From Antedon mediterranea (lineage: Eukaryota; Animalia; Echinodermata): 64,000 bases of DNA. A model generated the notes under the pieces. That model saw only the letters and a program-made list of their open reading frames with translations. It was not told the DNA's origin and did no database searches. This document shows positions 10,440 through 36,349 of the stretch, one piece after another (the first letter of the stretch is position 1; each line of letters starts with the position of its first letter). Made by a program: the position numbers and the translations under genes. Where the stretch lies: contig NC_092670.1 of assembly GCF_964355755.1 (NCBI RefSeq), forward strand, positions 26,894,795 through 26,958,794, read 5' to 3'.

Positions 10440-10510
10440 GGTTTCGCCAGGGCTCGAACCGGTTCCTTCTGCGTGTTAAGCAGACTTGACAACCACTACA
10501 CTACGAAACC
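10440..10510 (-). pseudogene. tRNA-Val (AAC)-like, degenerate
   Basis: Acceptor stem GGTTTCG/CGAAACC and anticodon arm TCTGC-TTAACAC-GCAGA are intact. The D stem and T stem have mismatches, the variable region is 1 nt short, and the discriminator A is absent. Confidence 0.75.
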
Positions 10511-10725
10511 TACTTACACTAAAAATGTGGGTTACAGAAAGTTTTTTAATCCATTTAAATTACAAATAAATATGGTAATAAGCACAAAGCAAAATAAACA
10601 TGTGTAAAAGTGATAATTACCGATTACGCAAAATAAGTATTTTAAAAAATAATAAAAATAAGATATACTGTGTATAATTATCATATTGCGTATACAGTAC
10701 TTTTCACCATAAAGTTTTAAAAAAA

Positions 10726-10797
10726 GGTTTCGCCCGGGCTCGAACCAGGTACCTTCTGCGTGTTAAGCAAACGTGATAACCACAACGCCAAGAAGCC
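10726..10797 (-). pseudogene. tRNA-Val (AAC)-like, degenerate
   Basis: Sequence GGCTTCTTGGCGTTGTGGTTATCACGTTTGCTTAACACGCAGAAGGTACCTGGTTCGAGCCCGGGCGAAACC has acceptor-stem mismatches and shares its 3' flank with the 10440 copy. Confidence 0.7.
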
Positions 10798-14107: not shown

Positions 14108-17009
14108 GTAAGTAATATATATACACATTTTATAAATAATATTGTCAGTTGATTTAACTGTATTATTTAGGTAACATTGGATCTAATGACAGTTTATATT
14201 AATTAAGAGTTTCAGGTTAGGCCTGTAAATTTGTCTCAATCCGTCAAGCAGAGAGAGTAGGCCTACCTAGGGCCTAGCCTAACTAGCTAGGAGGCCTACC
14301 ACCGCCGATATGTTCATGTCGACACAGCAGGGAATTGATGAATGAGGTGGTATTTCTCGCTTCTCAACTAGGCAACGGCTTGTGGATTGTTACACTAGGC
14401 TTAATTTTTAAATAAGAATATATTAATAATTATTTAAAAATGTCCGAAATACAATATCCCAACAAAAAATGTTATGTTTTATTATAATTTTTAGGGCTAG
14501 GCCTGGCCAAACAAATCTCTAGGCCTAGCCAACCAAATCTAGGCCTAGGCCTATTTATTTTCTAATTTAATAAACTATTGAGATAAAATCAACATCCATA
14601 TTTTGTGTGGAGCGCCGCTAGATAAGCTTTTTATCATTTAGTAACGTTGGATATCGGTCGCGTTTTTGGTCGCACTAATTTTTATGGGGAGCACAATACA
14701 TTATCGCCGTTTCTAGGGAAAATGCTTATTATGTTTTAGTTAAAATATAGGAATTCTAATAATACTCCTATTGATAGGGATACCGAGAGCTGACTCAATT
14801 TTCATTACCACGATTAAACAGCGCGCACGTTACTATGCGCGCAATGTCATTGACGTGGTGTTTTTTACTTTGGTAAACACCTTTTATTAGGTAATTATTC
14901 TAAAAAAATTTATTATGAAAATATCCTTTTGAGTAAATATTTATTTACCTATTATTCAGATCAAGTATTTTTTATTTCCATTTCATTCAACCAAAAATGT
15001 GAATATAGTGGTTAAAAGATCGTTATCGCCTAGCGCGTATAGCTTTTGTTTACTACAAAACCCTCGGAAGCCTCAATGACCTACCATTTTCAACCTTATT
15101 TTTGTAGTTGAGCCTCTTATGACCTAAAAATGTTTTTTATTTCTACACCAAGATAATATAGTTCCACATACCATGTGCTTGTTACTAAGAAAAATATTAA
15201 TTTTAAGTGCTAAAAAAAAACCAGTTTTATTCCGATATGAGGCCTTTATGATTCGAATATTTCATTTCACCGATATACCATGAAAAATATCCGTTTTGTC
15301 CATTTTTAAAAAAAATTTTGGAAAATTCCGAGGAGCTCAACTACAAAAATGTTATTTTGTGGTATGATGTCATTGCAAGTCAATCAAACCTCTGCATTCG
15401 ACTGCTCCGCAGGTCTCACGGTTGAACGATTTTGGATTCTCGCCCTTTGATTGGTTGACGCGAATCAACACACAGCGGAATAATTTTCTCGCGAGTGCCG
15501 TGAAGTCACATGGTCTAAGACCTGTCCAATTACACATGAAAATAATGCATTGAAATTCTTCGAATGAGGTTAAATTAACACTTTTTTTATATAATAAATA
15601 AAAATATCATATTTTATTGAATTTTACAATGTTGATATACAAAATATATTACTTAAAACCGTACGAAAAATGACTAGTTCATACAATTGTCATAATTCAA
15701 GAGAATATTTAACATTGAGGTGGTTTCCCGTTGCCTTCCTCGCTGTATACTAGCAGCTGTCATTTAGTTTATATCTCTAGATCGGTAACAAAATGGCCAT
15801 TCTACACCTTTTCTGTCATGGATTGGACCCTTAGCCTTCCATTCTACTCTAATTTATTTTATTCTTCATCGTCATTGTTATGATCATATTATATTTATTT
15901 TGTGATGTTGTGCAAAACTAAGCTAGGGCCTAGGACTTCTTTCTTGTGGAATAAGCTCAGTTGAAAACATCCAGAGGTCGACTATACTTTACTGTAGCTG
16001 AAAGTAAAAACATGAAAAAATGCAGACATATATGCTGATAATATGATAATCGTATGTTATTAAACAAGCTCCAATGTAAAATTTAGATTTTGCCGCTAGG
16101 TACTAAAACTATAAATGTACGCAATTGCTAAAATTGGCATTTTGACTAACTTTTAGGATTTTAATAGAAGCTTCAAATATAACTAATAATAATTCAGTGT
16201 TGCCAAAACAACATACCTAGAAGGCGCCTGGATCACCTACAGTAGGCTAAGCCTTCAAGGATTGATACTCGATTGATACAGGTTTTTCGGACGACCCTCA
16301 ATATTATTTTTTATATTTCACACTTTTTCAATTAAAAAAATATTCTAATATAGGCCCTAATCACTTTATTCTTTATCCACAAAAATTATATAATATTTGA
16401 TTTATATAGAGATTGAATTAATGAAAAAATGCGATCCACTAATTAATGTTTTTATATATAGAGCCACCTACTGTCCGACTTCTAAAACAGGGTACCATTT
16501 CGGTTCTTTGGTATTTGAAGCCGTCTATCAGCCATATCGACGTACAGCAGCCATTTTGTTGTTTAACAACGAAGTAAATGTAGAAAAAAAAAAAATCCTG
16601 TGTGACCTTAACCATGACCTTGCATAAATTACTGGTTTTAGAAGAATAATGAATAATTCATGAGGAAAAATGATATGATTGGTAAATTTATAAGTAAACA
16701 GTGTCAGATGATTACTGGAACTTACGGAGTACCAAGCCCCGTCCCCTAGTTCCGTTTCGTACCTTTATTTTATTTCGACTACCTTTCGACTAACTAAAAG
16801 AAACGGAACTAGCGCCTTGATTTTTTTCTATCAGAAAACGAGTTATTTAAAGATTTAAATACAGTGGTGTTAATGTAGACTATTGGCGCTAACTGTACTT
16901 GCGAACCTTACTTATAAACCCAAATTAATTTCAGCTTAAGAAACTGCAAACATAAAACTAAAGGAAGTCTTGTCAGTGTCATCAAGTTTAGCTTCATCAT
17001 CTTGTAATT

Positions 17010-20000
17010 ATGCCTTCCGAACAAGCTAAACGTCGTCAAGCTAAGAAAAAGTCAGCAGCTAAGCAAAAAGGAGGAGCCCGCAAAGAGAGTATTATATCAT
17101 TAAATGGTAAGAAAACAAATTTGGAGTCATTTGGCTAACTGTTGGAGAAATAAATATTGAAAATTACCAGCCTCCTGTTTTCTGGTGGAGAGTGTAGAGT
17201 TAACTAAATTAAATTGTTAGAAAGTTTTCCTAACTTTTGTCACATGTTACATTTTCAAGAAAGCTTGTAACTCTTCTTCTGTAGGGGAAAGTGAAGTAAA
17301 TGGTGTTACTAAAAATATAGCAGAATTGGATATAGACACTGGCAGATCCTGTACTGGAGTATTAGCATCCCATGAAAGTGGCCGGGATCTGAAAATTATC
17401 AACTTCTCATTGACATTTCATGGGGTAGAACTGTTTGGAGATACTACAGTAGAGTTGAATTGTGGAAGACGGTATGGCCTGATGGGGCCTAATGGGTGTG
17501 GTTAGTTACATTTGTTATATTACAACAATATGAATTATGTAGTGTTTTTCAGGATGAATACTTGTAAAGAGTGGGATTGCAATGTCATTTGTTTAGATAC
17601 TTTTTCCAGAATTAAGCTTGATAGATAGCAATAAAAGAAGTTTTTTTCTGCATAACAATTAACATTATGTACTTGATTGGTAGTCTCATTGCTGCAATTC
17701 TATCTCAGCAATGTGAATAAATGAATGCCCATTGTTCAATATTTCTAAGTTAAAATTCCTGATTATAATCAGTTTATTAATTTAGCTTTTTCAATACAGT
17801 TTCTCATAAAAAAGGATTTTATATAATAATTTAAAAATAAATAAAGGGTAAAAATGTTTATATTATGTCTCTTTGTTGCATAGTTCTTTATTGCCCAAGA
17901 CATGTAACGTACCCCTATTTATTGATTGATTATAACATTTTGTGCTTTGTTTTTCTTAGGTAAATCTACATTCTTGAATGTGATTGGTAATCGTGAAGTT
18001 CCTATTCCAGATCATATGGATATATTCCATCTGACTTCAGAGATGAGAGCAAGTGATAAGACAGCTTTGGATTGTGTCAAGGAAGTTGACGAGGAGAGAA
18101 TTAGACTAGAGAAGGAAGCAGAAGAACTTGCTCATGATGATGGAGATGGTAATAATAACATCTTGTTATACAAGAAAGACGCAAAATAATCAATTTTGTT
18201 TAACCTTCCACATATTTTTCTTTGTTGCTAGAAACTTAAATAAATCCCACAAAAGACAAAAAAATATTTGTAGTTCATGGGAAGCATTTCAGTTAACTCC
18301 TAATGCATTTCAATCAGTGGGCCACAAGAAACTAAGTGTGTGATACAATACTGTACATGGTCAAGTGCTAGATAATTTATGAATGCAATTTATTGTATGC
18401 AAGAACAATGTCAGGTATTCAGAGTTTTCAGAACCAGTAAGTTGTTTAATATGTTTTTAATTTTTTTTTGATATTAAAATATTTAATTAATTTCCATTTA
18501 TTTGTTTCAATCATATAGAGGCCCAAGAACGCCTGCTAGATATATATGATCGACTTGAGGAGCTTGATGCGAGCAAAGCAGAAGTGCAGGGTGCTCGTAT
18601 ATTAGACGGGTTAGGATTCACTGCTGACATGATGAATACCAAGACTAAAGACTTCTCTGGAGGTTGGAGAATGAGAATAGCGTTAGCGAGGGCACTTTTT
18701 ATACGACCGCATATATTACTGCTTGATGAGCCTACAAACCATCTAGATTTAGAAGCATGTGTATGGTTAGAAGAGGAGCTTAAATTGTAAGTTGGATGTT
18801 TTAAATTATTTGTTCATGAGCATTAAAAAAATATATATTAAATTATATATTCTTGATCACGACTTTTGGTTGTTTTATTTCTGGCATCTAACCTAAGCAC
18901 TGTCAGTTGAATATTACTATACTTTTTTATTATTTTTCATTTAGATATAAACGTATACTGATTCTAGTGTCTCATTCACAAGATTTCCTGAATGGTGTGT
19001 GTACAAATGTAATCCACATGCATCGAGGCAAGTTTCAGTACTATGGCGTAAGTTTTGTACAATAATAATATTTGATAATGGGGGATTATTTCCCAAAACT
19101 ATCAGCTTAATAACCTATTGTGTTAATAGTGAATACCCTCATACTGCATGACTGTAAAGCTTTGTTTACCAAAGTGAGGAAACAACTCTTTAAATATACT
19201 CTATATTTAATATTTTGTTCAATCTGGTGATTACATACTGCTGTCACTGCATTGTTCACATTTAAAGTTTACCTGTTGGCTGAAAAGTTTCCACATCCAG
19301 GCAAAAAGTTAAATATTAGAACATGGCAACTAGCATGGTCGCCTTACATTTATACTAATTCATTTATAATAATCCCACCCGTCATAGAATCTTTCAAATG
19401 TTTCATATTTAAAAATAACATGTTTTTGTGTTTTTAGGGAAACTATGACCAGTATATTAAAACTAGGAATGAACTGGAACAGAACCAAATGAAACGATAC
19501 CAACGAGAACAAGAGGAGATTGCTCATATGAAGGTATGTTTGTGTAACAAGAACTAGAAAGCCACTCCGAGAGTGCATACCTCCGCCTACTGTAAAACTC
19601 TTGAGTTTGGTGGAAAAGTTATGTAACCAGCCTTCCAACTAGTAATAGTTTCAGTTGACTAACAATAGAACAGAAATGCCAAAAACAAACGAGTGAATTT
19701 GAAAAGAAATAGGTTTTTTAAAACTACTCGTTTCATAAAACCTGTACAGTAAATCAAATTATGTTTTGAAATTACAAATCACAAACTAGATTTGAACTTG
19801 TCACTTTGGATGAGTTAGGTCATCTGCAGCGGAAACGCCACATGCAAGTCATACGTTAGAATATTGCGCACAGAAAAACGATTATGCCATTGACAAAATG
19901 TTAGTGTGCTCTGTATTTTGAGTCACGTGTAAGTATATACAGTATACATTATATAAAAAAAGGCATAATTTTGACGAATTTTGAAAGTTGGTAAAATTAC

Positions 20001-23000
20001 TAGAAAAGATTCGAAAAACATAAATCACGTGAAAAAAGATGTTTTTAGCGCTACATGCGCACTGTGTGCGTAAAAATGTCAGGCCTCGAATTTTACCGCG
20101 GCCAGTGCCGTCGGTGCCCTCCCAGTTGGCCTCAATGCCCTCGAAAATGAATAGCACCCACGGCCACTACTGGCCTGCCCTTTTTTTTGCGTTGGCCGCG
20201 AGTGCCCTTCCCGAGTTTTACCAAAATAAAAACCACTGAATTAGATAGAAAATAATGTCAAGAAGATTTGTTTACACGACTCGGTCGAGACGCAAAACTA
20301 TCGCCTGTCTTCGTTGCAAGGGGATTTCCCTAAACGCATTTATTAATACACAAACAGTAAACAAAACATCGAACATTGCAATAGGGTAACCAAAACAATA
20401 TCATCCCGGCCGCCGTGCGTGGTAAATCATGGTATAGATAGTACATTAAAATACAGGGGTGTAAACTTTTAATAATCAAGCTAAAAACGTTCCTCGATCG
20501 GAGGTTACTGAAAGTATTAAAGTCGCACAAATCGAGCTAGCCGCCTTCGATGAAAAAAATATTACACGCACTCGACTCCTAGCTAGCCTATCCTCCCGCC
20601 GCCGATCCGGTCGAGCACACGCAATTCAACCCAATTCAATGCATTGGGAAAACAATTCTATTTGACGCACACGCACCCTCTGATAAGAAATTTCACACAC
20701 AACGTCGTGTGAGAGTACGCGCGGAGGATCGGCGGATCGTTGGAAAAACAATTCCTTTTGACGTACACGCACCCTCTGAGAAGAAAATACCATCTGCATT
20801 CCTGCATGGTGTAGTCCATTATACGTGTAAAATTAGGGGTGTTTACCTTTAGCACCAAAGTTAAACCTGCACCTCAACCCGAAGATCGTTGGAAGTATAT
20901 CATATTTATATTTGATCACACCCACCTCAATAATTCAGCAGACAGATCATCGAAAAATCTTGTTTAACAACGTCGTACACTAAATTACCAAACGAGTTTT
21001 TACCGAATTCAAGGAAATGGTATAGTCCAGAATACACGTGCCGAAGGCTAAACAGAGAGAGAAAGGGGTCGGTGTCCGTCCGTGTTTTGAATTCTTATAA
21101 ATATGGGTTATACTAACAAAAAAGCTTCAGAAATCGAAACTCGGAAAATAACTATAATTTATATTCTACTACATAATGTAATTGGCTTGATTTTTACCGT
21201 GGTTAACACTCTGTGTATGAATAGTTGTAGGTAAGGCCTACAAACAAATTGTTTTTGTATCATGTTTTCTCCGTCGGCTGCTAGCTAAGTAAGGCTGAGT
21301 AGCTTGCTGTTCTAAGGGTTTTTATACCTGTTCCGGGCCTTACTTGGTTGGCTTCACATGCCTTTTTATCGCATTATTTGAAACTAAACGAAACATTCAA
21401 CACAGGACGGTAAACTATAAACGCTGAACATCGTACCTATTTATTATTTATATGGATCGTAAATACACGTAATATTTATATGAAATACAAAAACATGTAT
21501 TGTAGACAGTCCTACTACTACTCCGCGATCTGATGAATAGGGGGAAATCCCAAAACATTTTGCGGGTAGAATTTTTTTTTTTTGAAAAAAATTCCACCCT
21601 CAACCGGAAACAAGCTATTTTTTAATTTTGGCCTAGTTATTAAAATATTTTTTAATTTTGGCCTTGGTGCCCCTTTGATTTAAAACAAATGGCCTTGGTG
21701 CCCTCCCATTTGGCCTTGGTTCCCCTAAAATCAATGAAAACCGGGGGCCAAATGGCCTTGCCCCTAAAATCCCCAAATTCGAGGCCTGAAATGTGCGTGC
21801 ACGTGTGAATTTTTGACATGCTTAAAATGACATGAAACGCATAGAAAGTTGATTAGAAATTTATTTTTCGCAATTTTTAAACGCGCGTTTAACTTTATGT
21901 GGAACATGCCATTTTTAGTCCATAGAAAGTTTGCCCTTGATATAACTTAAATTTTCACAAAGTGTCAATATAAAATAACTTATGGTTTTTTAACTATGAT
22001 CAATCTATATATAAATTTACGTAAGGGCAAAAATCGGTAAATCGTGCGTTATTTCTAGAATGTTTACTCGATGGTATATAAAGTTGGTTCGTACTTTCGG
22101 TACTAATTTTAACCACCTGATGTAACCCTGTCTACTAATTAAATTGAGTTCGATAATTAGTTATTGACGATTGGAACGAATTTAGGTTCAACGATTTGCC
22201 CCAAATAGGGGTGTTTTCCGATCGTGGTATACACTGTCTAATGGATGTCAATTTGAAAAATACCCACACACAATAATACGAGGACACTTCGCATTTTCCT
22301 ATCTCCTCCTACGATAATTGTTTTTAATAGCTGAAAACCGGTTGAACAGTTCGAGTACAGCATCATAATGTTGAAGACAGGCTGATTTTCTTTAAAAAAT
22401 GCTATTTTGATACATGTAATATACGTTTTTACACATGTATTGATTTGTGATGAATGGAACATTCCAAATTATTTGGTTTAACCATAGAGGTATAGATTTA
22501 GATTTATGGGCCCCCTTGGAGAATAAACATAAATAGTATTGCAATGCACTTTTGATCGCAATTTGAATCGCAAATATCTTACTGTGAGTGTTGGTACTGT
22601 TAGATATAATATAAACAAATATACAAATAAACTTTATTACTGTGAGTGTGGGTAGGCCCTACTGTTAGATTATAAACATATAATATACAAATAAATAAAC
22701 GTTATTACTGACAGTTGCTTCTCAACGTTTGTATTAATTAATAATTTAAAAATATATAAACGTTCGTACGTAGTGGTGTATCGTTACATGTACTTTACTA
22801 TTTCAATCGACTATGACAGTGAGAGTTTTAACAAAGTATTAAATCGTAAATGTTTTACTGTATTTAGTGGTATATTATTTATAGGCCTATAAAACATTAA
22901 AAACAATATTTCGTTACTGAGTGGATAAGAATATATTTTAAAATGTTTCCTCTTTGTACCTATCTTCTTCCCCCATCCCTCAACCCTTAATGTTACATAC

Positions 23001-26000
23001 AAAACACAAATTGGGTTTGTTTAAATGAGTCCAAATAAAAAAATTTGACTCATTTTGTTTCTCTCTCGGAAGTAATTCCCAGGGTGCTAATTTTAGCTGA
23101 CTACATAAATCATCGTGTATATTTATTCGTTTCTGTAAACGACAATGTATTATAGTCCTGCAGTACGTACATTTGAAATCTCCATTTTTTTCTCGCTGGA
23201 AAATACTGTGTATTCGAGAAACATCTGTGGGCAAGACCTAGATGGTACGCGAGCGTGCCATCTAGTCATTGAAATTCATAAAATTGCGCATAACTTACGC
23301 TGCGCGACTCTAAAAACATAAAACGTAGTTTCCTGCACTTCTATCTTCTGACAAAGTTATACGATGTAATGTTGATGAGAATTAGAGATACACGTGACAC
23401 AAAATTCTGGGAAAGAAAGAAGAATATAGAAAAAAGAAAAAATTGTGACAATAACAAGGGGTTATCCGCCAAGTACTGTAAAGCGCTGTGTTATGACTTA
23501 TCCAAGGTATAGTCTTCTTCAGCTCACCGTACAATTAACAGCAAGATCAAGCAAGTACAACAGTTTCTGAAAGAGTTGAAGTTGAGCTAGTTGTGAAAAA
23601 TCAGGTTTTTTTCTGGCTGGAAAACATCTGAAATCGAAGACATACATGTCTAAACCAGCAGAAATTGCTACCCCTACTGAAATGGCTAATGAATACCATA
23701 ACAATGGGACTAACAAAGCCAAAAATATACACAACCAAGCTAGGAAAAATACACAAGGTGACATAATCGAAATCGATACCTACACTGAAAGCGATAACAA
23801 AGAAAACTAGATTTGAAATCTTCACGGTGACGAGTTAGGCTATCGCGCAACGAATCGTAACATACAGATGCTATTTATTAGGCTTAGCCTACAGTAAGCT
23901 GCACCACAACTATTGTACAAACAGCGTTGCATCGATCAAAATCGTTTAACAAGCGTCAACAGTTGACTGTATTGGCAAAGTAAACGGTTTAGTTTTTATT
24001 TTACACCACTCGCGTTTATTTAATTGTTTGAATGTGATGACATTTTCAAATTAAAAATAAAGTTCATGTGTGACGTCTGAAGAAGAATGTTTTAAGTAAT
24101 AACATTATTAAAAATTTGAAGAAAATTGATAACGTTTACGCAATATGCGCTTTATTGAAAGTGACGAACTGTGTCAAAAAAGATAAAAATCCAATATTAA
24201 AATTTAGATGGCCATATGGTGACATTATCAGGGAATAATTTCGCCAGTGTAGCATAGCAAAAAGCTATACAAAACAACCTTATTGCTACACATTTCTAAA
24301 ATTGTGTAGCAAAAAAGACAATACAAAACTATGTTTCTCGACTAAAAAATCAGTTTGATTAGCAATAATTGCTAAACAAAATTTTAAAATGAAATTTTTC
24401 CCTGATTATAACATATTTATGATCTAAATTTCACATGAATTCATATCTGCAACTCATTGTGCTTTATAATAACTTAAACATATAGGGGTCACCAGTCATC
24501 CTGAAGAGCTGTAATCGATTTAAAATAGGCTTACTTTTACACAAATTTGCATAAAATTAACCATTTTCAGGCGCACGATTTTTTAAGTATGACGTGCACG
24601 TGTGTCATTATTTGACATTCATAATTCATCAAATATAAAAGAAATGTATCACAAAAATATATAGAACAAAAATCAAGCGCAAAAACGGGCTAAGTGCGCA
24701 AAAGCAAATTTTTTTTAAAAGATGTGAAATGCTTAAAATGTTCTGAACTGTGTAGAAAGTTGATTATAAATTGATTTTGAGCATTTTTAACTTTCAAAGC
24801 GCACGTACGCGCAATTTGACCAAGGTTAAAAATTTCGCTGATGATACAGGAATATGACCCTTGACATGAAGCATACGTTTGTCAAGTGGTATATTTATAG
24901 TCAATCTAAGGTTTTTTAGAAAATTGCGCGTAGTGACGCTACGCAACCATATTTTCATTAAACCAAAGTTTGTTGCACAACTACATATATACGTGCATCT
25001 ACTGGCCAAGTTACAACATAACTGCTACCGCCGTTTTTGAGATCTGCGTGACACAAAAATTGAGCAGAAAAAATGAAATTTTTGACAATAACAATAGGCT
25101 ATCGATCTACAGCGAGCGGATGGAGCTATTGTTGGGTTCTGCCTTTTCGCGTTTCCAATAACTTTCTTTAATCCATTCCATGCTTGCTTGGGGTTACCGC
25201 TATCAAAATCATTCTTTATTTTCTCTCAAAATTTGCGTTTGGCATCATTAATTCGCTTTTTCATTAACTTCTGAATACGCTTGGCAGTTGATGGATGGCT
25301 GTTAATTTGTGAAACAAAGCCCTAATAAATGCTTTTGTTTAAATACTGGGCGTCATTAGAAATAGGGCCAGGAGTGTTAATTGTGAAATAACATGTTTGT
25401 TTTGGGAAAATGTTGTTTAATTTCAGTTATTTTAGATAAAAAATCTCTAGGCCTAGCTAGCCTACGGGGGAAATAAACCAATTTTCGGGTAGGGCGGGAT
25501 CTGAATAAAAAAAATCGGAACTTGGGACCTCTGTCATCTCAACATTCGTTCATTAACTATTTTTTTTTAATGGACTATAAATTATTACAAAGAAACTAAA
25601 ATAGAATTGTGGAAAATGATGACATAAAAGGCCACAGCCATATACAGTAGAACCTTTTACGTTCCCTTGATTTTACGTACGCTTAAAATGACCGATGACG
25701 TCATCATTTTCTTACATTGAGGGCGCAATTTAACAACAACAAAGCATAAAGCCATGGCTGTGTGAGGAACTTATGTGCATTCCCCTACAGCAGCGACTGT
25801 TTTTAATGATAGAAAATACAAGAACATTTATATTTTTATTTATAACACTTTTTTTAAACTAAATCGCACAGCCTGCATATACTGTACTTTTCTAGGCCTC
25901 ACATCTTGCTAGGCCTACTAGCCTGGCCTAGATTAGTCTAGGAAGGGCCTAGGCCTAGCTAAGCTAGTGACCACCTGCATGCTGTAGTCAAACACGGCAG

Positions 26001-29000
26001 TCTCTTTTAACTACGATCTACGTATTTGGGGGTTAATTTAAGGTCAACCTTGATTTTACGAATCCCTTGTTTTACGTACGCCTTTTGGTCCCGTACCGTA
26101 CGTAAAATGGAGGTTCTACTGTATATAAAGAGTTACGACATTGGATTAAAGTCACGTGATATGAAGATCAAATTGTGTCAAACTTGTCTCCGTTAATGCA
26201 TGTAAAGTATAGGAGCAACAAAATATTTTCAATTTTTTTCTTATATTTAAAAAAATGTAATTGCACATTTTACGGTGAAATATCGATGTGCACAGCGTAC
26301 AGAAGTACTTGCGGAAAAGAATATTGCGTGCGTGTGCGCTAGTACATTATAAAGTTCGATTGATTCATTTTGGAACAAAACATCCCATAACTACGTCCTA
26401 TTAATACCAATAATAATATTTTCAATTCATAATGCATGCTTTGATGACTAAATAAAATAATAAAGTGTCGTGGATATATTTGTTCATATGCTGAAAAGGT
26501 TATGAACAATATTAAAATAATAAAGGCAAATTATTACAAATGTCTCTGAAATTTAATAACGTTGGCGGTGCAGTTTGTGTCAAAAACACACAGAAAGCCA
26601 TATACTGAATTTGTGTGTTTTTTGTATTGGTTCATGCTTTGATGTATCCTAACTTGCATGTAGGCCCTAGCATTTATTTTTTTGTTATAAAAAAAATATT
26701 TGTTACCAAATCAATACTATTAAGAAAATTAATTACTAAAATAAAAACGAAATCTAAGCATTATTTCATAGACAACAAAATCTAAAAAATAATGCATGAA
26801 CTACAGGAAAATGCTATACAAAATAGACGCGCGCGCCCTCAGCGTGCGAATTCTTTGACACAAAAATGGCTTCTAATCTTCAAAGTCGTAACTCTTTATA
26901 TGGCTCTGTAAAAGGCTGAATTACAGCACCCTCTATTACCGAGGGATCTGCGACAAACTCCTGAAGCGAAACTATTCTCTCTGTTCATAATTAACATACT
27001 TTCAAAGCTTATTGTACATTTTATGTCATTTAATTTTGAACTATTTCAACTTCTTTTTATAGGATTATATAGCAAGGTTTGGCCATGGAAGTGCAAAGCT
27101 GGCCAGACAAGCACAATCCAAAGAAAAAACACTGAACAAAATGGTTGCATCTGGTCTTACAGAAAGAGTGTATAATGACAAGGTATAACACATAGACATT
27201 TTTACCTTTAAATTTATATTTACAGTCAACTGCCAAAGAGACACCCTACGGTGAGCGATTTTAATGTTAAAATTAATTTTGGACTTACTAGGTAAAATTA
27301 GTCTAGTTACAAGTTGTTTTGGAGAGTTTTCAGATCATCCAAAATTGGAGAGTTGACTGTACATTTTGTAATCTCAACATTCATTAAGCTGTTGACATTT
27401 GATGATCCACAATGCAATTAATATTTTTGGCAAGTGTGTAGGTAGATTTTGTATCTACAAATTATTGGAAAAACAAAATTTGATTGACTTGTGAGAAATG
27501 ATGACATAAAAGGCCGAATTACAGCGCCCTCTATTACAGAGGGAGCGGTGACAAAAACTCCTGAAGCGAATATTGCTCTGATTTCACAGTCTTTTGAAAT
27601 AATTGATAGATCAACTTCTTCCATTTATTCCTTTCTAGCATTAATATTGATTATCTTAATTCATTTTATACTTTCAGTCGGTGAGTTTCTTCTTCCCAGC
27701 ATGTGGTAAAATCCCTCCTCCTGTTATCATGGTGGAGAATGTTAGCTTCAGATATGCAGATGATAAGGTAAATTTTTTTGCACTTTTTAAACTACATTCA
27801 GTTGCCTACTTTGTTATGTTCTTTTAAATGGCCAGTTTAATCACACTTTGTTGTTTTTCTGTATGCTCAGGGCTGCAAATTAACTTTTTCGCTTGGTAGT
27901 GCTATCAAATTTTTATGATGGCTCGTAATAATTTTTGGTAGCACCACCAATTTTTTCAGTAGCACCTGTTCGACAACTAAGCCCTTCCCTCAAAACCCCA
28001 TCCGCGCAGATCCGTTTTTAGTTAAGGTGGGGAGGGGGGTTGAGGTGTATAAAAATGGAATACAACCTTAGGCTGGGGGTCAGGGGGACGCCAAGGGCCC
28101 CGCCGAAGGTGGGGGGTGGGGGGGAGGTGGTTTGAGTAATTATAGGTTGTTTCAATCGATTTCTGAGCACATAAAAATTCCACCCAGAAGAATTCAATTA
28201 ATTTGGGTTATGCACATTTTAGGCACTGGTCCTGATGCGCCACTTATATTCACGCAAGATCTATTCTTTTTACAGTACAGAAAGAAATTACTGCTTTGTA
28301 TATACCCGTAACCTTTCGTAGCCTACGCGTAAATAGATTGTAGGTCATTGTTCTCTGAACGTATCCTGCAATTTACAAAGTATTGTTCGTTGCCTACGAT
28401 GTATTGTTTATGATAATTATCTACGCGTCGATCGTAGGATGGTTCGTAGGGTTAGTAATTTGTAAACACCAATGTCATCACCTTTAGGAGCATGAACAAT
28501 GAAAACAAACATATTGTTGGCTAATTAAAATCCTAGAAGACGTTAATTTTGTAGCCACCCTACACATCAGTTGTCCTAATTTGGCAGGAAATCCGCCGCC
28601 GAGACGACATTGGGCCCCGAGAGTTTCGGCGGCCTACATGATTCAATCCTACCTTGGGTTAGCGAATTATAAAAACGACACCTTGGCTAGGACACCAACA
28701 AAATATATGCAAAATAAACATATATTCTATGGATTTAACATAGGCCTTTGTAAATTATTATTACGACAAAAGGCCTGACCAGAATTTGGAGGGGAAAAAC
28801 AGTTTAGAGCTGTATTACGTTTGTCTGTTTGTAGCCACTCCTCATCCTTCAGGGTAGTTAGTTCTGTTAACAGCTGTTCTCTCTCCGAATATTTTTCAGC
28901 ACATCCCGATCTGCAAAATTACATTGAATTTCTGGTAATTTAAAAGCAGGTTAATGAAAACTTTATACATATACATATTATTTATTTAGCACAGTGGGTG

Positions 29001-32000
29001 GAAAAGTATTACAGTATTACCTTTTTTTATTCAGATGTCCTTATTTTGAAGACATTAGAAAAGCTTACATACCTCATTTTTACTTTATGTTTCCAAATAG
29101 TTATGTTAACTATGAAGAATTCATAAATACACTTACTTTTCAACCCTCTCTTTAACTGATCTCATGTTTACCTGCAAGGTGGATGAACGAAACACCTTGA
29201 GGGCAACATTGAAATTTGAAGCCCCATCGTTCCATTTTTCTCCATTTTCATAAGGGTTTAGTGACAGGACCTGCTTCAGCAGCATTATGTCCGTTGCTGC
29301 GCAATACCTTATGGTTTTTTTGCTATAAAGAAATAAAAGTTATGATATGATTTCAACTATTTTCATTTTCATAATACTAATAGACCATTCAGTGTTTTTA
29401 ACACTCATTATTAATACTAGATGGTACGCTCGCTTCGCTCGCGTACCATCTAGGTCGTGCCCACAGATGGTTCTCGAATACATACTAATTTCAGCGTTTA
29501 AAAAACTGGCGACTTCAAATGCACATGCAGGACAATAATACATGTTGTTTACAGGAACGAATAAATAGACACGGTGATTTATGTACTCAACTAAAATTAG
29601 CACCCCGGGAATTACTTCCGAAAAAGAAACTTGTCACAAAATAAGAAACAAACTGAATTTGTGTTTTGTATGTAACATTTGGGTTGAGGGATGGGGAAGA
29701 GGATGGATGCAAAGACGAACAATTTTTAAATATATTCTTTATCGATTTAGTAACGAAATATGAATTGTTTTCATGTTTTACAAATAATATACCAGTAAAC
29801 ACAGTAAAACATTGCGATTTAATACTTTGTTGAAACTGTCACCGTCATAGTCGATTGAAATAGTACAGTACATGTAACGATACATCACTAATACGACGTT
29901 TATATTTTTTGAAGTTACATGATTACAAACGTTCAGAAGGAACTGTCAGTAATATATTAAACACCTCTATTCGGGGCAAATCGTAAATTCGCTTTAATCG
30001 TCAATAAATAATTATCTAACTCAACTTAATTAGTAGGCCTAATGGTTAATTGTTTCATAGAGCCAATTATGCTACCCACTACCCAACTTGTATTGAAAAG
30101 TTGTTCTGCGTTTAGGGCATGTACTGATCATTCGTACTGTAGGCCTGCCCTCTACTGGCTTTACAACGCTACTCATGCCAGTGAGGGGAGGGTGGTGGTG
30201 TTGGTGGTGGTTTAGCTGCAATAATAAATTTGATTGTACATAATAGACGGCGACTGGAAAGGCTAGCTCATTATGCGTTAAAAAAAAGATTCCACAGATT
30301 GGAAAAAAGTGTATCGAATTTCTGTTATGGCTGTACAGTACTTGTCTTTATGACGCCTGAGGGAATAGACACTTGTGGAACAGAGATTGGAATGTTCCAT
30401 TTATCGCAGATCAAAACATTTGTATAAACGTATATTAAATCTATAAAAATAGTATTTTTTAAAGAAAATCGGCCTGTCTTCAACATTATGATGCTGTACT
30501 CGAGCTGTTCAACCGGTTTTCAGCTATTAAAAACAATTATCGTAGGAGGAGATAGGAAAATGCGAAGCATCCTCGCATTATTGTCTGCGGGTATTTTTCA
30601 AGTTGGACATCCATTAGACAGTGTATACCACGACCACGAAACACCCCTATTTAGGGCAAATCGTTGAACCTAAATTCGTTTTAATTGTCAATAACTAATT
30701 ATCTAACTCAATTTAATTAGTAAACATGGTTACATCAAATGGTTAAAATCAGTACCGAAAGTACGAACCAACTTTATATACCATCGAGTAAAAATTCTAG
30801 AAATAAACTGCGATTTACCGAATTTTGCCCTTACGTAAATTTATATATAGATTAGGCCTATACAGAAAAGCTCCATAACGAAAAATAATCGATAATCGAT
30901 CGAATAATTGATCATTTTAAATGACGACTTACCTATTTTCTTTCTGACCCAGTCCAAGCACTTTATTTAACAGCTCCTGGTAAATAAAATTGTAAATATT
31001 TTGGTGGACAATATAATATTTTTACAGCTAAGTAGGCCTAGTTATAAGTTAGGCCCTGGCTGTTTTATAAATTATACAAGCCATTAGTGACTAGCCTAGG
31101 CCTAGTAGTATATTAGTAAGTAGGATCGGAGGACCTGCCTGGCACCTAGGCCGCCTCCTCCTCTAGGCGTAGGCTAGGCCTAAACTAAATGTTTTCTGAC
31201 TAGGCCTAGGCCTACAGAAAGTTCACAAATATATAATTTAGATTAGTAGTCTAATTCTTATTTTAATAACTTATATCAGGAAAAGTACATGAAACGTTTT
31301 TTTGCTATTGGTCAAAAGTTTAACTCACCATGTCGCGACGTCGTGTATTTCTCGATTTTGCAGACGAGAACCAGCTCCTGTATCTCGGGCTACGAGCATT
31401 AGTTAATTAAAATTTCACATAAACTAATGACGTCATACACAAAAAACCCTTACTTTCTCGGCGGCTCGTTCCCGATCGAGATAGCGAAAGCTCTCTAATA
31501 TTCATGAGTTCCGCGAGAAAATCAAGCTTGAATGATTTTGCCTCATTACCGCAAGAGACGTTCACTTTCATGGTTGAGTAAGTAATAGGGTATGTTATCG
31601 CGGAACTCGCGGAAAATTAGTTTTTGGACGGCCCTAATAGTCGCAAACAGAAAAATTAGGTCGCAAATGCGACCAAATACCCCTTAATTTGCAGCCCTGA
31701 TGCTTTTGAGATAGTTTGGAAAAAAGTCTTTGGATAGAATGTTGACAAAAAACTGAGTAACAAAATGATTGTTCTACCACAAATTAGAAATTTTTTTAAT
31801 TCACAGATTTGTAGGTCTATTTTCATATTGTAATTTTTATTGTCTATCTTTTCATTTTTTTATCTAGCCATTTATATACAACAATTTAGAGTTTGGAATT
31901 GATCTAGATAGTCGAATAGCGTTAGTAGGTCCCAACGGAGCTGGCAAGTCTACACTTCTTAAATTGATAGTGGGAGATCTATCGCCAACCAGTGGAGGTA

Positions 32001-33465
32001 TACGAAAGAACTCGCATATACGATTCGGCAGGTATCACCAAGTAAGCATGTATTATTTATTTGTAGTGAATATTTTTAATTTTATTTTATTGACAAAATG
32101 ACATTAGTATATTATATATAGCAAGTTGCATTGAATTGGTTAAAATTCCGTCCTCTTGAATATAACTGTTTGAATAATTAGGTAGTTTACTCTACCTTGT
32201 TTAAAACAAAATTTGCTCACAATTATTAGCATGCCACCTTTTACAACTGCTTTTAGGATTTTCTTGGATATTATAGGATTTTTAATTTAATTCATTAAAC
32301 CTTTTTTTACCAGCATTTACAAGAAACTTTAGATATGGAAATGAGTGCTTTAGATCATATGTTAAAGGAATTCCCAGATGAGAAAGACCGGGAACAGATG
32401 AGGAAAAGTATAGGAAGATATGGGTTAACAGGCAAGCAGCAGGTAAGAACATTTCAATGAGATTACTTTCCATTAAAACTAAGAATATTCAGTTGAATGC
32501 CAATCCTGTGTTGATGTGCATTTTAAACAACCCTCAGCACTTTTTTAAAATGGTATTCTTTATTTTTGTGTAGAAATAAGCGATCCCTCTTATTGGCAGC
32601 GGGTTTCGTAGTGATGCTGTATTTATGTAATATGTACATAAGTAAAGTAAAGTGTCCACCACCCGAGTGGCTGAGGCGGGAAGGTTGTCCAGAAATTGCG
32701 CTCTTTTAGAGTAGAACCGTCCGTTAGTATGTACTCATTTAGTTTAGTACGTATTTAGGTTGTTTTGTGTGGCAGATTGAATAAAATTCAAGTCTGAAAC
32801 ATTTTTATTGTAACTATTGCCGTTTTTAGGTGTGCCCAATGAAGAATCTTTCGGATGGTCAAAGGTGTCGTGTCATCTTTGCATGGCTAGCCTTTCAAGC
32901 TCCTCATCTACTGTTACTTGACGAACCTACGAACCATCTGGATATGGAGACCATCGATGCTTTGGCCGAGGCAATTAATGATTTTGAGGGTGGTCTTATA
33001 CTTGTTAGCCACGACTTCAGGCTTATTAATCAGGTTTGGACAAGACAGTTATTTCTGTACTTTTGTGTGTGATGTAGAGGGGCACACTTGAAGAATGATG
33101 AAATTAAAGGCCGAATTACAGCGCCCTCTAATATTTGAGGGAGCAGTGACAAAAACTCCTGAAGCGAATTATTAAATCTGACTTCAAGGCTGACCTAAAA
33201 GTTTTAAAACATTTTTGTATAGGCAATGCAAGGCTTGTTGAAGAAACAATTGTTGGGTTTGTGTTCGAACAATGTAATGCCACAATAATTTAATAATCCG
33301 ATATCTTTTTAATTTGATTGACACATCTTTTAGGTTGCCAAAGAAATTTGGGTTTGTGAAAAACAGGCTGTAACAACGTGGAATGGTGACATCATCAAGT
33401 TCAAAAGAGAGTTGAAGGCAAGGGTTATGAAAACCAATGCAAAGGTCCGAGTGATGAAGAAATGA
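17010..33465 (+). CDS. ABCF2: ATP-binding cassette sub-family F member 2, complete, 605 aa
   Basis: Exons 17010-17106, 17285-17500, 17960-18148, 18519-18786, 18945-19047, 19438-19533, 27063-27182, 27678-27767, 31868-32041, 32314-32442, 32830-33033 and 33334-33465 total 1818 nt, all GT-AG and in phase. Motifs: [14 protein letters not shown] start, [60 protein letters not shown]; no TM domains. Confidence 0.97.
18267..18410 (+). ncRNA. Candidate intronic H/ACA snoRNA
   Basis: Hairpin TTGTAGTTCA...TGGGCCACAA, H-box-like AAACTA, a second hairpin ATACAATA...TATTGTAT, and ACA at 18405-18407, about 110 nt upstream of the 3' splice site. Confidence 0.3.
19551..19597. repeat. Short interspersed repeat end (Helentron-type), second copy inverted at ~49116-49161
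   Basis: AACTAGAAAGCCACTCCGAGAGTGCATACCTCCGCCTACTGTAAA recurs as its reverse complement in a SMARCAL1 intron. Confidence 0.65.
20080..21788. mobile_element. hAT-like non-autonomous element with a 6-bp TSD
   Basis: 14-bp perfect TIR CAGGCCTCGAATTT, flanking direct repeat AAATGT, and subterminal TGGCCTTGGTGCCC repeats. Confidence 0.8.
22004..23265 (+). mobile_element. Non-autonomous Helitron
   Basis: 5' TCTATATATA and a 3' hairpin GATGGTACGCGAGCGTGCCATC ending in CTAG. It is inserted between A and T with no TSD; the empty site TATGATCAA|TCATTGAAAT is seen in the paralogous repeat at about 36151-36170. Confidence 0.85.
23806..25120. mobile_element. Helentron/DINE-1-like repeat, divergent copy
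   Basis: Starts ACTAGATTTGAAATCTTCACGGTGACGAGTTAGG and shares internal blocks and the terminal GACAATAACAA with the other copies. Confidence 0.5.
25633..26908. mobile_element. MITE with an 8-bp TSD (hAT/P-type termini)
   Basis: TSD TAAAAGGC at 25625-25632 and 26909-26916. TIR CA(C/G)AGCCATATAAAGAGTTACGAC; the left copy is split by a nested element. Confidence 0.85.
25645..26121. mobile_element. Tc1/mariner (pogo-type) MITE nested in the TIR of another MITE
   Basis: TIR CAGTAGAACC/GGTTCTACTG with TA on both sides. Confidence 0.8.
27491..27587 (+). ncRNA. SNORD89: Box C/D RNA, SNORD89-like (U2 snRNA 5'-end complementary)
   Basis: Box C ATGATGA at 27498-27504, box D CTGA at 27578-27581, terminal stem GTGAGA/TTTCAC. 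AAAAGGCCGA and GAAGCGA are complementary to the conserved U2 5' end. The block order matches vertebrate SNORD89 as recalled. Confidence 0.85.
27868..31699. mobile_element. hAT-like non-autonomous element with a 5-bp TSD
   Basis: 16-bp perfect TIR CAGGGCTGCAAATTAA with flanking direct repeat ATGCT. It fills most of the ABCF2 intron at 27768-31867. Confidence 0.8.
29417..30851 (-). mobile_element. Non-autonomous Helitron, same family as 22004-23265
   Basis: Minus strand 5' TCTATATATAAATTTACGTAAGGGC, 3' hairpin plus CTAG, A|T insertion site. Confidence 0.85.
33087..33188 (+). ncRNA. SNORD89: Box C/D RNA, SNORD89-like, second intact copy
   Basis: Box C at 33095-33101, box D at 33178-33181, and a perfect 7-bp terminal stem CTTGAAG/CTTCAAG. 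AAAGGCCGAATTACAGCGCCCTC...GAGGG...GTGACAAAAACTCCTGAAGCGAA is conserved with the other copy. Confidence 0.87.
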
Positions 33466-33908
33466 GCAGCTCAATGTTTAAACAACTTAGTGGATAAAGG
33501 ATCCAAAGGTCAACATTACATTGAAGCTCTTTATCATGTTACCTTTGTGAGTTACACAATTCCAGTATCTATTGTTTGTAGCTTAATGCTGTGAAACAAA
33601 AAGAAGTCCAGGTTTCATTATTTAATATTGCAAAGTTTTAAGCAGGAGTCATTGTGTGCATGCTGGGAATTGACCGCTTGTAAGTTTCTCAGGTTGTAAC
33701 TTTAGTTTTTGTATTAAGATATATGATCACACAATTATTTATGATTGTCTATATTATCTGTGGTTAATTTTAGCTTTCCTTGGATGCTGTTTTTTGGATA
33801 TGAATTCTGAATAACTTAGTATGCTTGATTAATTTAATCTACAATACTATAATATAGACAATACATTATTTGAATGCAAGCCAAGCACAAGGAAATGCAT
33901 TTCTAATA

Positions 33909-34660
33909 CAGTCGACTCCGCCTAAGTCGAATCTAATGGGACCGGTATAAAAATTCGAGTTACGCGAACTTCGACTTACAGATTTGCAAAAAAAAATGCT
34001 AGGCCTAGGCCTAGGTTCACTCACTAGCCGCACTATGGCTAGGCCTAGTGGACACTGCCCTGTCGCGGCCCACGCGATGAGCCTTCTTGAATTGAGTTTG
34101 CTTAGCTAGCTAGCTAGGCCTAATAAATGCTAAGCGGCAATAATAAACTGTATTTTCTTTTATGGTTTAAGCCCGAAACAATACAAAAACGTATAATAAA
34201 TACATTTCGGTTCTTATTCGAAATCGGTATCCATTGTTTATTGCCATCTGTCTAGCACAAAATAGGTACCCACAAAACGCCGCTCAAGTTCTCAACTCTG
34301 AAAAACAACTCATACGCTATACACTAGCGCGAGTTGTAGGACGCCGCCTATACTATACAACCTGCTTGAGAGAACCGATATGGTCCCACATTATCCCCTC
34401 TGTCGTTTGTTTATCGAATTACGTACGTTTCATCAGCTTTTTTAGCGCGTTGTTGCCGCGTAATTTGTGACTTCGACTTATACGATATAAATCACTAAAG
34501 AATGTGTGTATTCGGACCGCAAAAAGACGTCGACTTAGAAAAATTTGACTTACAAATAAAAATTACACAGTAATATATAGGAAAGAATTGGGACTTTCCT
34601 AAAAATTCGACTTCCGCGATTTTTCGACTTGCGCGAATTCGACTTAGGCGGAGTCGACTG
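33909..34660. mobile_element. Tc1/mariner (pogo-type) MITE
   Basis: 24-bp perfect TIR CAGTCGACTCCGCCTAAGTCGAAT with TA TSD, in the ABCF2 3' region. Confidence 0.9.
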
Positions 34661-35473
34661 TATAATATAAAAAGATTTAATGCAAATAATATGTAAAACC
34701 TAGTGTAGATTTCATTAGGGTGTAAGGTTAAAGGTATACTTTTTTTAATCATAAGCATAAGAATAAGAATATATCTATCAAAAGTATTTGTAATATACAT
34801 TTTTCTGAAAAGTCTAGAAAACTTGACAATTATCTTTAGTTTGCCACTATTTGGAGGAGTGTGTTACTTCTCATTTTGTTCATCTGCAGGATCAAATTAC
34901 TATTGATTCATAACTTGTTCAAACTAGTTTTCTGCAGTTTGTCACTTGCATTTGCTAATGTAGACTAGGCTTAGACTGATTAATATATATACGATTAAGG
35001 AATATCCACTTATTTATTATTAGTTATATTTAATACTTTTCATTGAAAATAAAAAACACATTTAAAAATGTTTAGTTTATAGTAACTTTGTGCTGCAAGT
35101 CTATACTTATGAAAGTAAAAGTATAATAAATATTCTTTATGGTTGAAAATATTTTTTTACAAATTTTTAGTGATTTTGAATTTATTTGAATATTTTGAAT
35201 GGCAGTTTGTGTTCAATAGGGTGTTGCAACAATGGGTGGGGTTCTTGCATTGCATTCTAACAGCAAATTGATTGGATTTAATCGTTATTTTTAGGCTGGT
35301 TACTGAAAATTTGTCCAGTCTCTGCTGCCAAAAATTAGGATTAATTTATTCACATGGTTAATAACACGTAGCAGAAACATTAGCATTTCTATCCTTCAAG
35401 GCTGTATGTGGTTATTTGAGCTTTTGTATTTTTTTAATGGTTTAACAAAAAAATAAGGTAAAATTTAAACCAA

Positions 35474-36349
35474 ACTAGATTTGAACTCGTCACTACGGAC
35501 GAGTTGGGTTATCCGCACGACAAACTCCACGTGCACGTCAACGCACAGAAAAACGATTATGCCATTGAAAAAATGTTAGTGCGCTCTCTATTTTGTGTCA
35601 CGTCTAAGTATACAGTATATACGGCATACGTACTGCATACAGTGCAGTACAGTTATTGACGCTTTAAAACGTGTCATCACAATTTTTAAAATGGTGAAAT
35701 CATATGACGTCACAATGTCCGGTTAGCCATATTCATGCATGATTCGGTATCTACAACTCATCTACTTCCAGAATCTGTAATTTTAAAAAAGGCATAATTT
35801 TAACGAATTTTTTAACTTTTTCATCAAAAACGTGCGGAAATTGTTCAATTCTACGTGCTCGTATGACGTGATTTTAAGTCGAAACTGTTTGAAAGTTGGT
35901 AAAATTACTAGAAAAGGCTAAAAAAACGATGTTTTTGCGCTACGTGCGTGGGAATTTTTGAAATGCTCAAAATGACATGAAACGCGTAGAAAGTTGATTA
36001 GAAATTGATTTTTCGCATTTTGAAATTTTAAACGCGTGTTCGCGTGTAACTTTCTGTGAAACATGCCATTTTTAATCATAGAAAGTTTGCGCATGATATA
36101 ACTTAGATTTTCACCAAGTTTCAATACAAAATGACTTTTAGTTTTTAATCTATGATCAATCATTGAAATTCATAAAATCGCACGTAACTTACACTGTCGA
36201 AAAGCTTGGCTGCACATCTCCAGCTACAGGTCAATCTTATGACAAAGTTATACAATCTTATGTTGGCCAGAATTAGAGATACGCTGCAAACAAAATAGAA
36301 AAAAAAAAAAAAAAAAAGATTGTGACAATGCCGAGTGCGGATAACCAAT
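35474..36349. mobile_element. Helentron/DINE-1-like repeat, uninterrupted copy
   Basis: Runs ACTAGATTTGAACTCGTCAC...GGTTATCCGC to ...GCGGATAACCAAT (short subterminal inverted repeat), with no TSD. Confidence 0.6.

What the first reader, a model, noticed from the sequence alone, without database searches (positions are those of the whole stretch)
27491..33188. Invertebrate SNORD89-like U2-guide RNAs hosted in ABCF2 introns
Seen: two intact C/D RNAs (27491-27587 and 33087-33188) conserve the boxes, an internal CCCTC/GAGGG hairpin, and two blocks, (A)AAAGGCCGA and GAAGCGA, while their terminal stems differ in sequence but still pair. Known: U2 snRNA begins AUCGCUUCUCGGCCUUUUGG, so the two blocks pair with nt 9-18 and nt 2-8, around the 2'-O-methylated G11/G12. 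As I recall, human SNORD89 has the same blocks and is hosted in RNF149. Inference: the bipartite U2 5'-end guide predates vertebrates, has a different host gene here, and has multiplied between introns.
Basis: partly seen in the sequence, partly recalled or inferred. Interest (0 to 1): 0.72.

Follow-up and report, generated by a model that had tools for sequence, protein, structure and literature searches.

The report
Feather star U2-methylation guide RNAs
Introns of a feather star's ABCF2 gene carry two intact copies and one transposon-broken copy of a small guide RNA matching vertebrate SNORD89, which likely marks the start of the splicing RNA U2 with a methyl group; it is a new member of a known family, with a likely counterpart in plants.

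Summary
The window is crinoid: the 12-exon host gene encodes exactly the Antedon mediterranea ABCF2-like protein. Copy A (27490-27588, intron 7) passes Rfam's SNORD89 threshold (43.0 bits, cut-off 41). Copy B (33087-33188, intron 11) just misses it (40.2). A third copy in intron 6 is split by a 1,276-base insertion. Block 1 pairs with U2 nt 9-19 (A) or 9-17 (B), and the +5 rule points to G12. Block 2 pairs with nt 2-8 but is not placed as a guide (vertebrate U2; the crinoid U2 was unavailable). The function is published for vertebrate SNORD89, hosted in RNF149. New here: both copies weakly hit plant snoR113, the assigned guide for the equivalent U2 G13. Its second block differs at exactly the three positions where plant U2 differs, and pairing is kept (read by eye). 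This supports a real, probably very old, two-arm grip on U2. Expression and methylation are untested. Verdict: new member of a known kind, moderate interest.

The parts
17010..33466 (+). Host gene ABCF2, coding span of 12 exons: 17010-17106, 17285-17500, 17960-18148, 18519-18786, 18945-19047, 19438-19533, 27063-27182, 27678-27767, 31868-32041, 32314-32442, 32830-33033, 33334-33466
   Evidence: The one GT-AG exon set found translates exactly to P0009, the 605-aa ABCF2-like protein of Antedon mediterranea. Two ABC_tran domains plus ABC_tran_Xtn. 66-92% identical to 7 of 7 named ABCF2 proteins compared.
27490..27588 (+). Copy A, intact SNORD89-family box C/D RNA in intron 7 (27183-27677); ends 89 nt before the 3' splice site
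   Evidence: Rfam RF00578 43.0 bits, gathering score 41, E 4.1e-05 in the whole window; position
27507..27517 (+). Copy A block 1 (D'-side guide); pairs with U2 nt 9-19, and C27514, five bases before TTAC, faces G12
   Evidence: against the vertebrate U2 substrate printed in the supplement of PMC6984369
27519..27554 (+). Copy A degenerate D' (TTAC 27519-27522), internal CCCTCT/AGAGGG hairpin, and C'-like GTGACAA (27548-27554)
27563..27569 (+). Copy A block 2 GAAGCGA, accessory pairing to U2 nt 2-8, 8 nt before the D box
33087..33188 (+). Copy B, intact paralogue in the last intron 11 (33034-33333); 84 of 102 aligned positions identical to copy A
   Evidence: RF00578 40.2 bits, below the gathering score of 41, E 5.8e-05 and 5.5e-06; identity
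33106..33114 (+). Copy B block 1; pairs with U2 nt 9-17, and C33111 faces G12
33161..33167 (+). Copy B block 2 GAAGCGA; pairs with U2 nt 2-8, 10 nt before the D box
25608..25633 (+). Copy C, 5' piece (stem arm, C box, start of block 1) in intron 6; 24 of 26 bases identical to copy A, 20 of 26 to copy B
   Evidence: BLAST E 8.7e-06
25634..26909 (.). 1,276-base transposon-like insertion inside block 1 of copy C. It is flanked by an 8-base near-duplication of the target site (7 of 8 identical) and has inverted ends. A 477-base element with its own inverted ends is nested at a TA site (25645-26121).
   Evidence: the bins over it show very high contig depth in DNA runs, as repeats do
26910..26990 (+). 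Copy C, 3' piece (rest of block 1, hairpin, block 2); D box changed to CTGT and C' to GCGACAA, so a pseudogene
   Evidence: nhmmer E 4.9e-12; alignment

Best explanation
Copies A and B are intron-borne box C/D RNA genes of the SNORD89 kind in a crinoid ABCF2 gene, and they likely guide 2'-O-methylation of U2 snRNA at G12, possibly also G11. Predicted mechanism: (1) the RNA is cut out of the spliced ABCF2 intron and loaded with fibrillarin, Nop56, Nop58 and 15.5K (inferred from the family). (2) Block 2 pairs with the open 5' end of U2 (nt 2-8), and block 1 pairs with nt 9-17 or 9-19, which would have to open U2 stem-loop I. The two helices are contiguous on U2, so block 2 would act as a toehold and clamp (complementarity shown; the toehold role is inferred). 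(3) Fibrillarin, positioned by the degenerate D' box TTAC, methylates the nucleotide facing the fifth base upstream, G12; a one-base slip of the box would give G11 (inferred from the +5 rule and vertebrate data). The gene was copied between ABCF2 introns at least twice, and copy C was then destroyed by a DNA-transposon insertion (sequence shown; order of events inferred).
For: Rfam SNORD89 hits at 43.0 and 40.2 bits. Boxes, both blocks and spacing are shared with a vertebrate SNORD89 scoring 101.7 bits (L010). The human primer and antisense oligonucleotide sequences printed in PMC11863803 contain both blocks. SNORD89 made U2 Gm12 in a yeast test (PMC6984369), and knockdown in mouse cells lowered G11 by 72% and G12 by 37%. 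Between A and B the stems change compensatorily while the boxes, the core of block 1 and block 2 stay fixed, and the flanks are only 42-46% identical, which points to selection on the RNA. Plant snoR113, assigned to U2 G13 (PMC8053127), has the same layout. Its second block AAAGGT pairs with plant U2 nt 3-8 and differs from the animal block at exactly the 3 of 6 positions where the two U2 RNAs differ (by eye). Accessory pairing with a degenerate C'/D' motif is a known route to two-site methylation in yeast snR13 (PMC5389607).
Against: There are no expression or methylation data. The D' box TTAC has lost the G kept in vertebrate TTGC and so lacks both consensus G-A positions. Copy B is below the Rfam cut-off and has one pair fewer. 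Folding z-scores are modest. The snoR113 scores are far below that family's cut-off (17.9 and 18.6 against 47), so its likeness may be convergence on the same target. [quoted passage not shown]
Confidence: 0.8

Rival explanations
1. The RNAs are expressed and bind the U2 5' end but work mainly as chaperones that hold stem-loop I open, or they methylate G11 rather than G12, because the D' box is too degenerate to set the usual register.
For: D' is TTAC. Shifting the box by one base moves the target to G11 or C13. Knockdown of the vertebrate RNA hit G11 harder than G12. The 16-18 bp contiguous grip on U2 is longer than methylation needs.
Against: Vertebrate SNORD89, also with a degenerate D', methylated G12 in yeast. 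Plant snoR113 also lacks the G in D' (CTTA) and is the assigned guide of a detected Gm13.
Confidence: 0.1
2. Only one copy is active (most likely A); B is a decaying duplicate like C, or all are relics.
For: B scores below the Rfam cut-off and has a mismatch at the far end of block 1. C shows that copies die in this gene. B starts only 53 nt after its 5' splice site and ends 145 nt before the 3' site.
Against: B keeps perfect C and D boxes, a 7-bp Watson-Crick stem with compensatory changes, and both blocks, although its flanks have diverged from A's. B is slightly closer to the vertebrate RNA (70%) than A is (67%). C, by contrast, has lost its D box.
Confidence: 0.07
3. The real target is ribosomal RNA, not U2.
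For: An earlier unchecked AI note on an arthropod look-alike named the 28S peptidyl-transferase loop as an alternative. snoR113 was first predicted to target 25S G1446.
Against: 25S G1446 was later found unmethylated and snoR113 was assigned to U2 G13. The vertebrate RNA cross-links mainly to the U2 5' end. Two separate blocks match adjacent U2 stretches without a mismatch. I had no crinoid rRNA to test this directly.
Confidence: 0.03

Closest known systems
SNORD89 / HBII-289 (Rfam RF00578), vertebrate guide for U2 Gm12 and Gm11
   Same: C and D boxes, D'-side guide to U2 nt 9-18, degenerate D' and C' boxes, GAAGCGA block 8-10 nt before the D box, 7-bp terminal stem, intronic location
   Different: Shorter (99-102 against 114-116 nt, shorter internal hairpin). 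D' is TTAC rather than TTGC. The host is ABCF2, not RNF149. Three copies in one gene, against the single human and Xenopus locus listed in the supplement of PMC6984369. No Cajal-body signal recognised here.
Arabidopsis snoR113 (Rfam RF01420), assigned guide for U2 Gm13
   Same: Same order of parts: C box, A-run plus GGCCG guide, D' lacking the consensus G, hairpin, C', second block complementary to the U2 5' end, D box. Same target position (plant G13 equals animal G12; the +1 offset is given by Gm20/Gm19 and Am31/Am30 in PMC2685112).
   Different: Scores 17.9 and 18.6 bits against a cut-off of 47. Intergenic in Arabidopsis. The second block is AAAGGT and lies 5 nt before D. Homology is not proven.
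Yeast snR13, U18 and snR48 (accessory-guide and two-site C/D snoRNAs)
   Same: Unusual C'/D' motif plus extra pairing next to the target; methylation of two adjacent nucleotides
   Different: They act on rRNA and are unrelated in sequence; a model for the mechanism only.
SCARNA2 and SCARNA9 (mgU2-19/30), other U2 5'-region guides
   Same: Box C/D guides for nearby U2 sites G11, G19, G25 and A30
   Different: No Rfam hit to these families, and the +5 rule here gives G12.

Membership tests
SNORD89 (RF00578) | Covariance-model score at or above the gathering score (41 bits), copy A | tested here: met
   43.0 bits
SNORD89 (RF00578) | Covariance-model score at or above the gathering score (41 bits), copy B | tested here: not met
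   40.2 bits, full-length model match; B is therefore filed as a paralogue of A (82% identical), not as a member in its own right
SNORD89 (RF00578) | Terminal C box and D box closed by a short stem | tested here: met
   both copies
SNORD89 (RF00578) | D'-side antisense element to the U2 5' end with the +5 base facing G12 | tested here: met
   on the vertebrate U2 substrate
SNORD89 (RF00578) | The organism's own U2 carries the complementary sequence | not testable with these tools
   no genome held; no U2 in the window at Rfam's gathering score
SNORD89 (RF00578) | D' box of the vertebrate UUGC type | tested here: inconclusive
   TTAC in both copies, 3 of 4 identical and in the same register; PMC11863803 calls this box poorly conserved
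SNORD89 (RF00578) | Encoded in an intron on the host gene's strand | tested here: met
   introns 7 and 11 of ABCF2; the host differs from the vertebrate RNF149, which is not a defining feature because snoRNAs move between hosts
scaRNA (Cajal-body guide) | Cajal-body localisation signal | tested here: inconclusive
   The supplement of PMC6984369 says vertebrate SNORD89 contains CAB boxes, but I saw no definition of them; the crinoid internal hairpin is mostly Watson-Crick paired, not a G-U-rich stem
SNORD89 (RF00578) | Expressed as a stable small RNA and directs U2 methylation | not testable with these tools
   needs small-RNA-seq and RiboMeth-seq
snoR113 (RF01420) | Covariance-model score at or above the gathering score (47 bits) | tested here: not met
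   17.9 and 18.6 bits; it works like snoR113 but is not filed as a member
ABCF2 | Two ABC ATPase domains with the ABC_tran_Xtn linker; best matches are ABCF2 proteins | tested here: met
   (no tree against ABCF1 and ABCF3 was built)

The most novel reading that the evidence does not exclude
Vertebrate SNORD89, these crinoid RNAs and plant snoR113 are one family that goes back to the common ancestor of plants and animals. It grips U2 nt 2-19 with two arms whose second arm has co-evolved with the U2 5' end and is needed to open stem-loop I and to methylate G11/G12. ABCF2 was the host gene in the bilaterian ancestor, and the RNA moved to RNF149 only in the vertebrate line.
Probability: 0.4. Interest if true: 0.62.

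Novelty: new member of a known kind. Interest (0 to 1): 0.42.

Why it matters
U2 Gm12 is one of four 5'-end methyl groups reported as required for splicing in vitro, and one of two that survive loss of Cajal-body scaRNPs. How one guide marks both G11 and G12 is stated as open. The crinoid copies, with the plant comparison, single out a second conserved pairing (U2 nt 2-8) that can be mutated and rescued in the existing yeast assay. They also give a non-vertebrate anchor for the family's history and a small case of birth and transposon-caused death of guide-RNA copies within one host gene. The RNA class, target and copy mobility are all known, so this refines rather than overturns anything.

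Tried and rejected
Own genome: none held, so the crinoid U2, rRNA and other loci were not searched. Expression: no RNA holder listed among 5 runs; this is no evidence either way. Contigs of 4 runs laid on 16800-33800 were dominated by repeats. Three runs are one DNA sample that may be the source of the assembly. Run X1 is only guessed to be RNA: two of its listed contigs stop at an exon edge and two run through introns, so I draw nothing from it. Whether the insertion in copy C is fixed or polymorphic remains open. Homologue hunt by pattern: 15 metagenome loci, of which 1 of 15 (L010, vertebrate) is SNORD89 and 14 are not. 99 prokaryote-genome loci and 3 viral loci gave no full-length hit: across all 117 loci the best score after L010 was 18.4 bits. 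No invertebrate relative was obtained, so ABCF2 introns of other species were not inspected. A U2 motif scan of viral contigs found 0. The block-1 matches at 5224 and 5609 belong to a 385-base tandem duplication, not to snoRNAs. No further snoRNA family was found in ABCF2 introns 1-5 or 9-11, or across 18000-36000. A 28S sequence for the rRNA rival was not found in the supplement searched. Literature searches for an invertebrate SNORD89 or an ABCF2 host found no listing that pointed to one: SNORD89+invertebrate 3 listed, ABCF2+snoRNA+intron+host gene 0, CG9281+snoRNA 0. The supplements of PMC3511168 and PMC3349704 had 0 mentions. PMC9104705 and PMC8522698 passages held nothing on SNORD89. I did not search SNORD89 together with snoR113.
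Full report
Observation. A whole-window Rfam scan at curated thresholds gave 3 hits: two tRNAs and SNORD89 at 27490-27588 (43.0 bits, cut-off 41). An E-value scan of 18000-36000 added the second copy at 33087-33188 (40.2 bits, E 5.8e-05). Both have a perfect C box and D box and a 7-pair terminal stem, in which 3 pairs differ on both sides and 1 on one side between the copies without loss of pairing. Both fold the CCCTC/GAGGG hairpin. The two blocks in order occur twice in the window and in 0 of 200 shuffles. The copies are 82% identical to each other while their flanks are 42-46% identical.

Host gene and organism. An 89-residue exon is 100% identical to the ABCF2-like protein of the feather star Antedon mediterranea and 98% identical to that of Anneissia japonica. 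One set of 12 GT-AG exons between 17010 and 33466 reproduces the 605-residue protein exactly. Copy A is in intron 7 and copy B in intron 11, both on the gene's strand. Because copy A passes the Rfam cut-off, automatic annotation has probably labelled it already (inference, not checked).

A third copy. BLAST and a profile search show a further copy in intron 6, in two pieces: 25608-25633 and 26910-26990. Between them lies a 1,276-base insertion with inverted ends and an 8-base near-duplication of the target, which is the guide sequence itself. A 477-base element is nested in the insertion at a TA site. The D box of this copy is also changed. It is a pseudogene, and its 5' piece is closer to A (24 of 26) than to B (20 of 26). 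Destruction of snoRNA copies by transposons and movement between introns and host genes are described in PMC6984369 (passages).

Pairing with U2. I used the U2 5' substrate printed in the supplement of PMC6984369, because the crinoid's own U2 was out of reach. Block 1 pairs with nt 9-19 (A, one G-U) or nt 9-17 (B), and block 2 pairs with nt 2-8 with 7 Watson-Crick pairs. Co-folding forms both helices at once while keeping the internal hairpin. Taking TTAC as D', the fifth base upstream faces G12; a one-base shift gives G11 or C13. Block 2 ends 8, 10 and 9 nt before the D box in A, B and the vertebrate RNA, so it cannot direct methylation by the +5 rule and is best read as an accessory pairing. 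U2 alone folds a short hairpin over nt 11-22 in the same calculation, so block 1 must open it. That block 2 serves as the toehold is my inference.

What is known. SNORD89 was shown to make U2 Gm12 in a yeast system and was proposed as a scaRNA (PMC6984369; passages, section 6 part 1 and supplement rows). Knockdown lowered G11 and G12 methylation by 72% and 37% and altered splicing; the authors place the guide at a degenerate UUGC D' box (PMC11863803, 12 of 15 passages). The 12 passages shown did not mention the second block. The human host is RNF149 (PMC12152556, passages). A pattern scan of metagenome contigs returned 15 loci, of which one is a vertebrate SNORD89 (L010, 101.7 bits). It has both blocks, lies downstream of a RING-finger exon and has no ABCF2 match; naming that gene RNF149 rests on my recall of the family. 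Accessory pairing is common in C/D RNAs and, in yeast snR13, is needed with an unusual D' box for two adjacent methylations (PMC5389607, passages).

An unexpected plant link. Narrow Rfam scans gave both copies a weak hit to plant snoR113 (18.6 and 17.9 bits, cut-off 47, E 0.81 and 0.2), among several other weak C/D-family hits that I regard as box-driven. snoR113 was first predicted to act on 25S G1446 (PMC2685112, passages). RiboMeth-seq later found that site unmethylated and assigned snoR113 to U2 G13, the equivalent of animal G12 (PMC8053127; passages, section 3 part 4 and two supplement rows). Comparing by eye the snoR113 sequence, Arabidopsis U2.4 and the animal U2 substrate: its guide and CTTA box put the +5 base on G13, and a block AAAGGT before the D box pairs with plant U2 nt 3-8. 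Plant and animal U2 differ at 3 of these 6 positions, and the block differs at the same 3, each time keeping a Watson-Crick pair. The Rfam consensus prints AAGGU as conserved. A perfect 6-base match within the 21 bases between C' and D would arise by chance about 0.4% of the time (16 places over 4,096; my arithmetic, for one register, after the fact). This is the best evidence that the second pairing is real. It does not separate common descent from convergence. PMC8053127 says six snRNA sites have extra pairings and lists them in Table S12, which I could not see, so the plant half may already be in print. I did not run a search for the two names together.

Host history. Three earlier AI notes from other genomes describe SNORD89-like RNAs in ABCF2 (or ABC-F) introns of arthropods and another invertebrate. 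I could not check them, and they are leads, not support. A supplement of PMC11880993 lists three intronic snoRNAs in zebrafish abcf2a, one of them a 93-nt C/D RNA without a family name; no sequence was seen. If these hold up, ABCF2 is the old bilaterian host and RNF149 the derived one. My searches found no paper on an invertebrate SNORD89 or an ABCF2 host, but the library lacks most subscription journals.

Against and untested. There are no data on expression, on U2 methylation or on the U2 sequence in this animal. The D' box has lost the G kept in vertebrates. Copy B misses the Rfam cut-off. No Cajal-body signal was recognised. No invertebrate relative was retrieved.

Verdict. This is a real, well-supported new member of a known family with a published function (confidence 0.8). 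The additions are a non-vertebrate host, a dead third copy, and comparative support for a two-arm grip on U2 that may be as old as the plant-animal split. Interest 0.42.

Noticed in passing
window 25634-26909: Transposon-like element with an 8-base target duplication and roughly 25-base inverted ends, carrying a nested 477-base TA-flanked element; it sits inside the guide of the third snoRNA copy. Family not determined.
   Followed up: partly
window 22002-23255 and 29436-30853: ABCF2 introns 6 and 8 share inverted repeat segments (467 nt at 92% and 558 nt at 81%), likely dispersed transposon copies that swelled these two introns to 7.5 and 4.1 kb.
   Followed up: partly
window 1103-1175, 10438-10511, 10725-10797 (all - strand): tRNA-Gly(TCC) and two tRNA-Val(AAC) by ARAGORN; Rfam scored the first Val weakly (38.9 bits) and did not list the second.
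   Followed up: no
window 11529-13506: A 106-base satellite of about 15 copies is followed directly by a 99-base array that reads as its reverse complement, an inverted junction within one satellite.
   Followed up: no
window 56634-57819: 23-base minisatellite, about 51 copies, causing the strong GC skew seen.
   Followed up: no
window 5004-5773: 385-base tandem duplication; each unit holds a chance match to block 1.
   Followed up: yes
zebrafish chr2:32508142-32508988 (supplement of PMC11880993): abcf2a hosts three intronic snoRNAs: one overlapping a snoZ30 prediction, an unnamed 93-nt C/D RNA and an H/ACA RNA. The unnamed one is a candidate SNORD89 relative; untested.
   Followed up: no
L002, L011, L012, L013, L015 (pattern matches): Five of the 15 metagenome pattern hits are the same conserved bacterial coding stretch, not RNAs.
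   Followed up: partly
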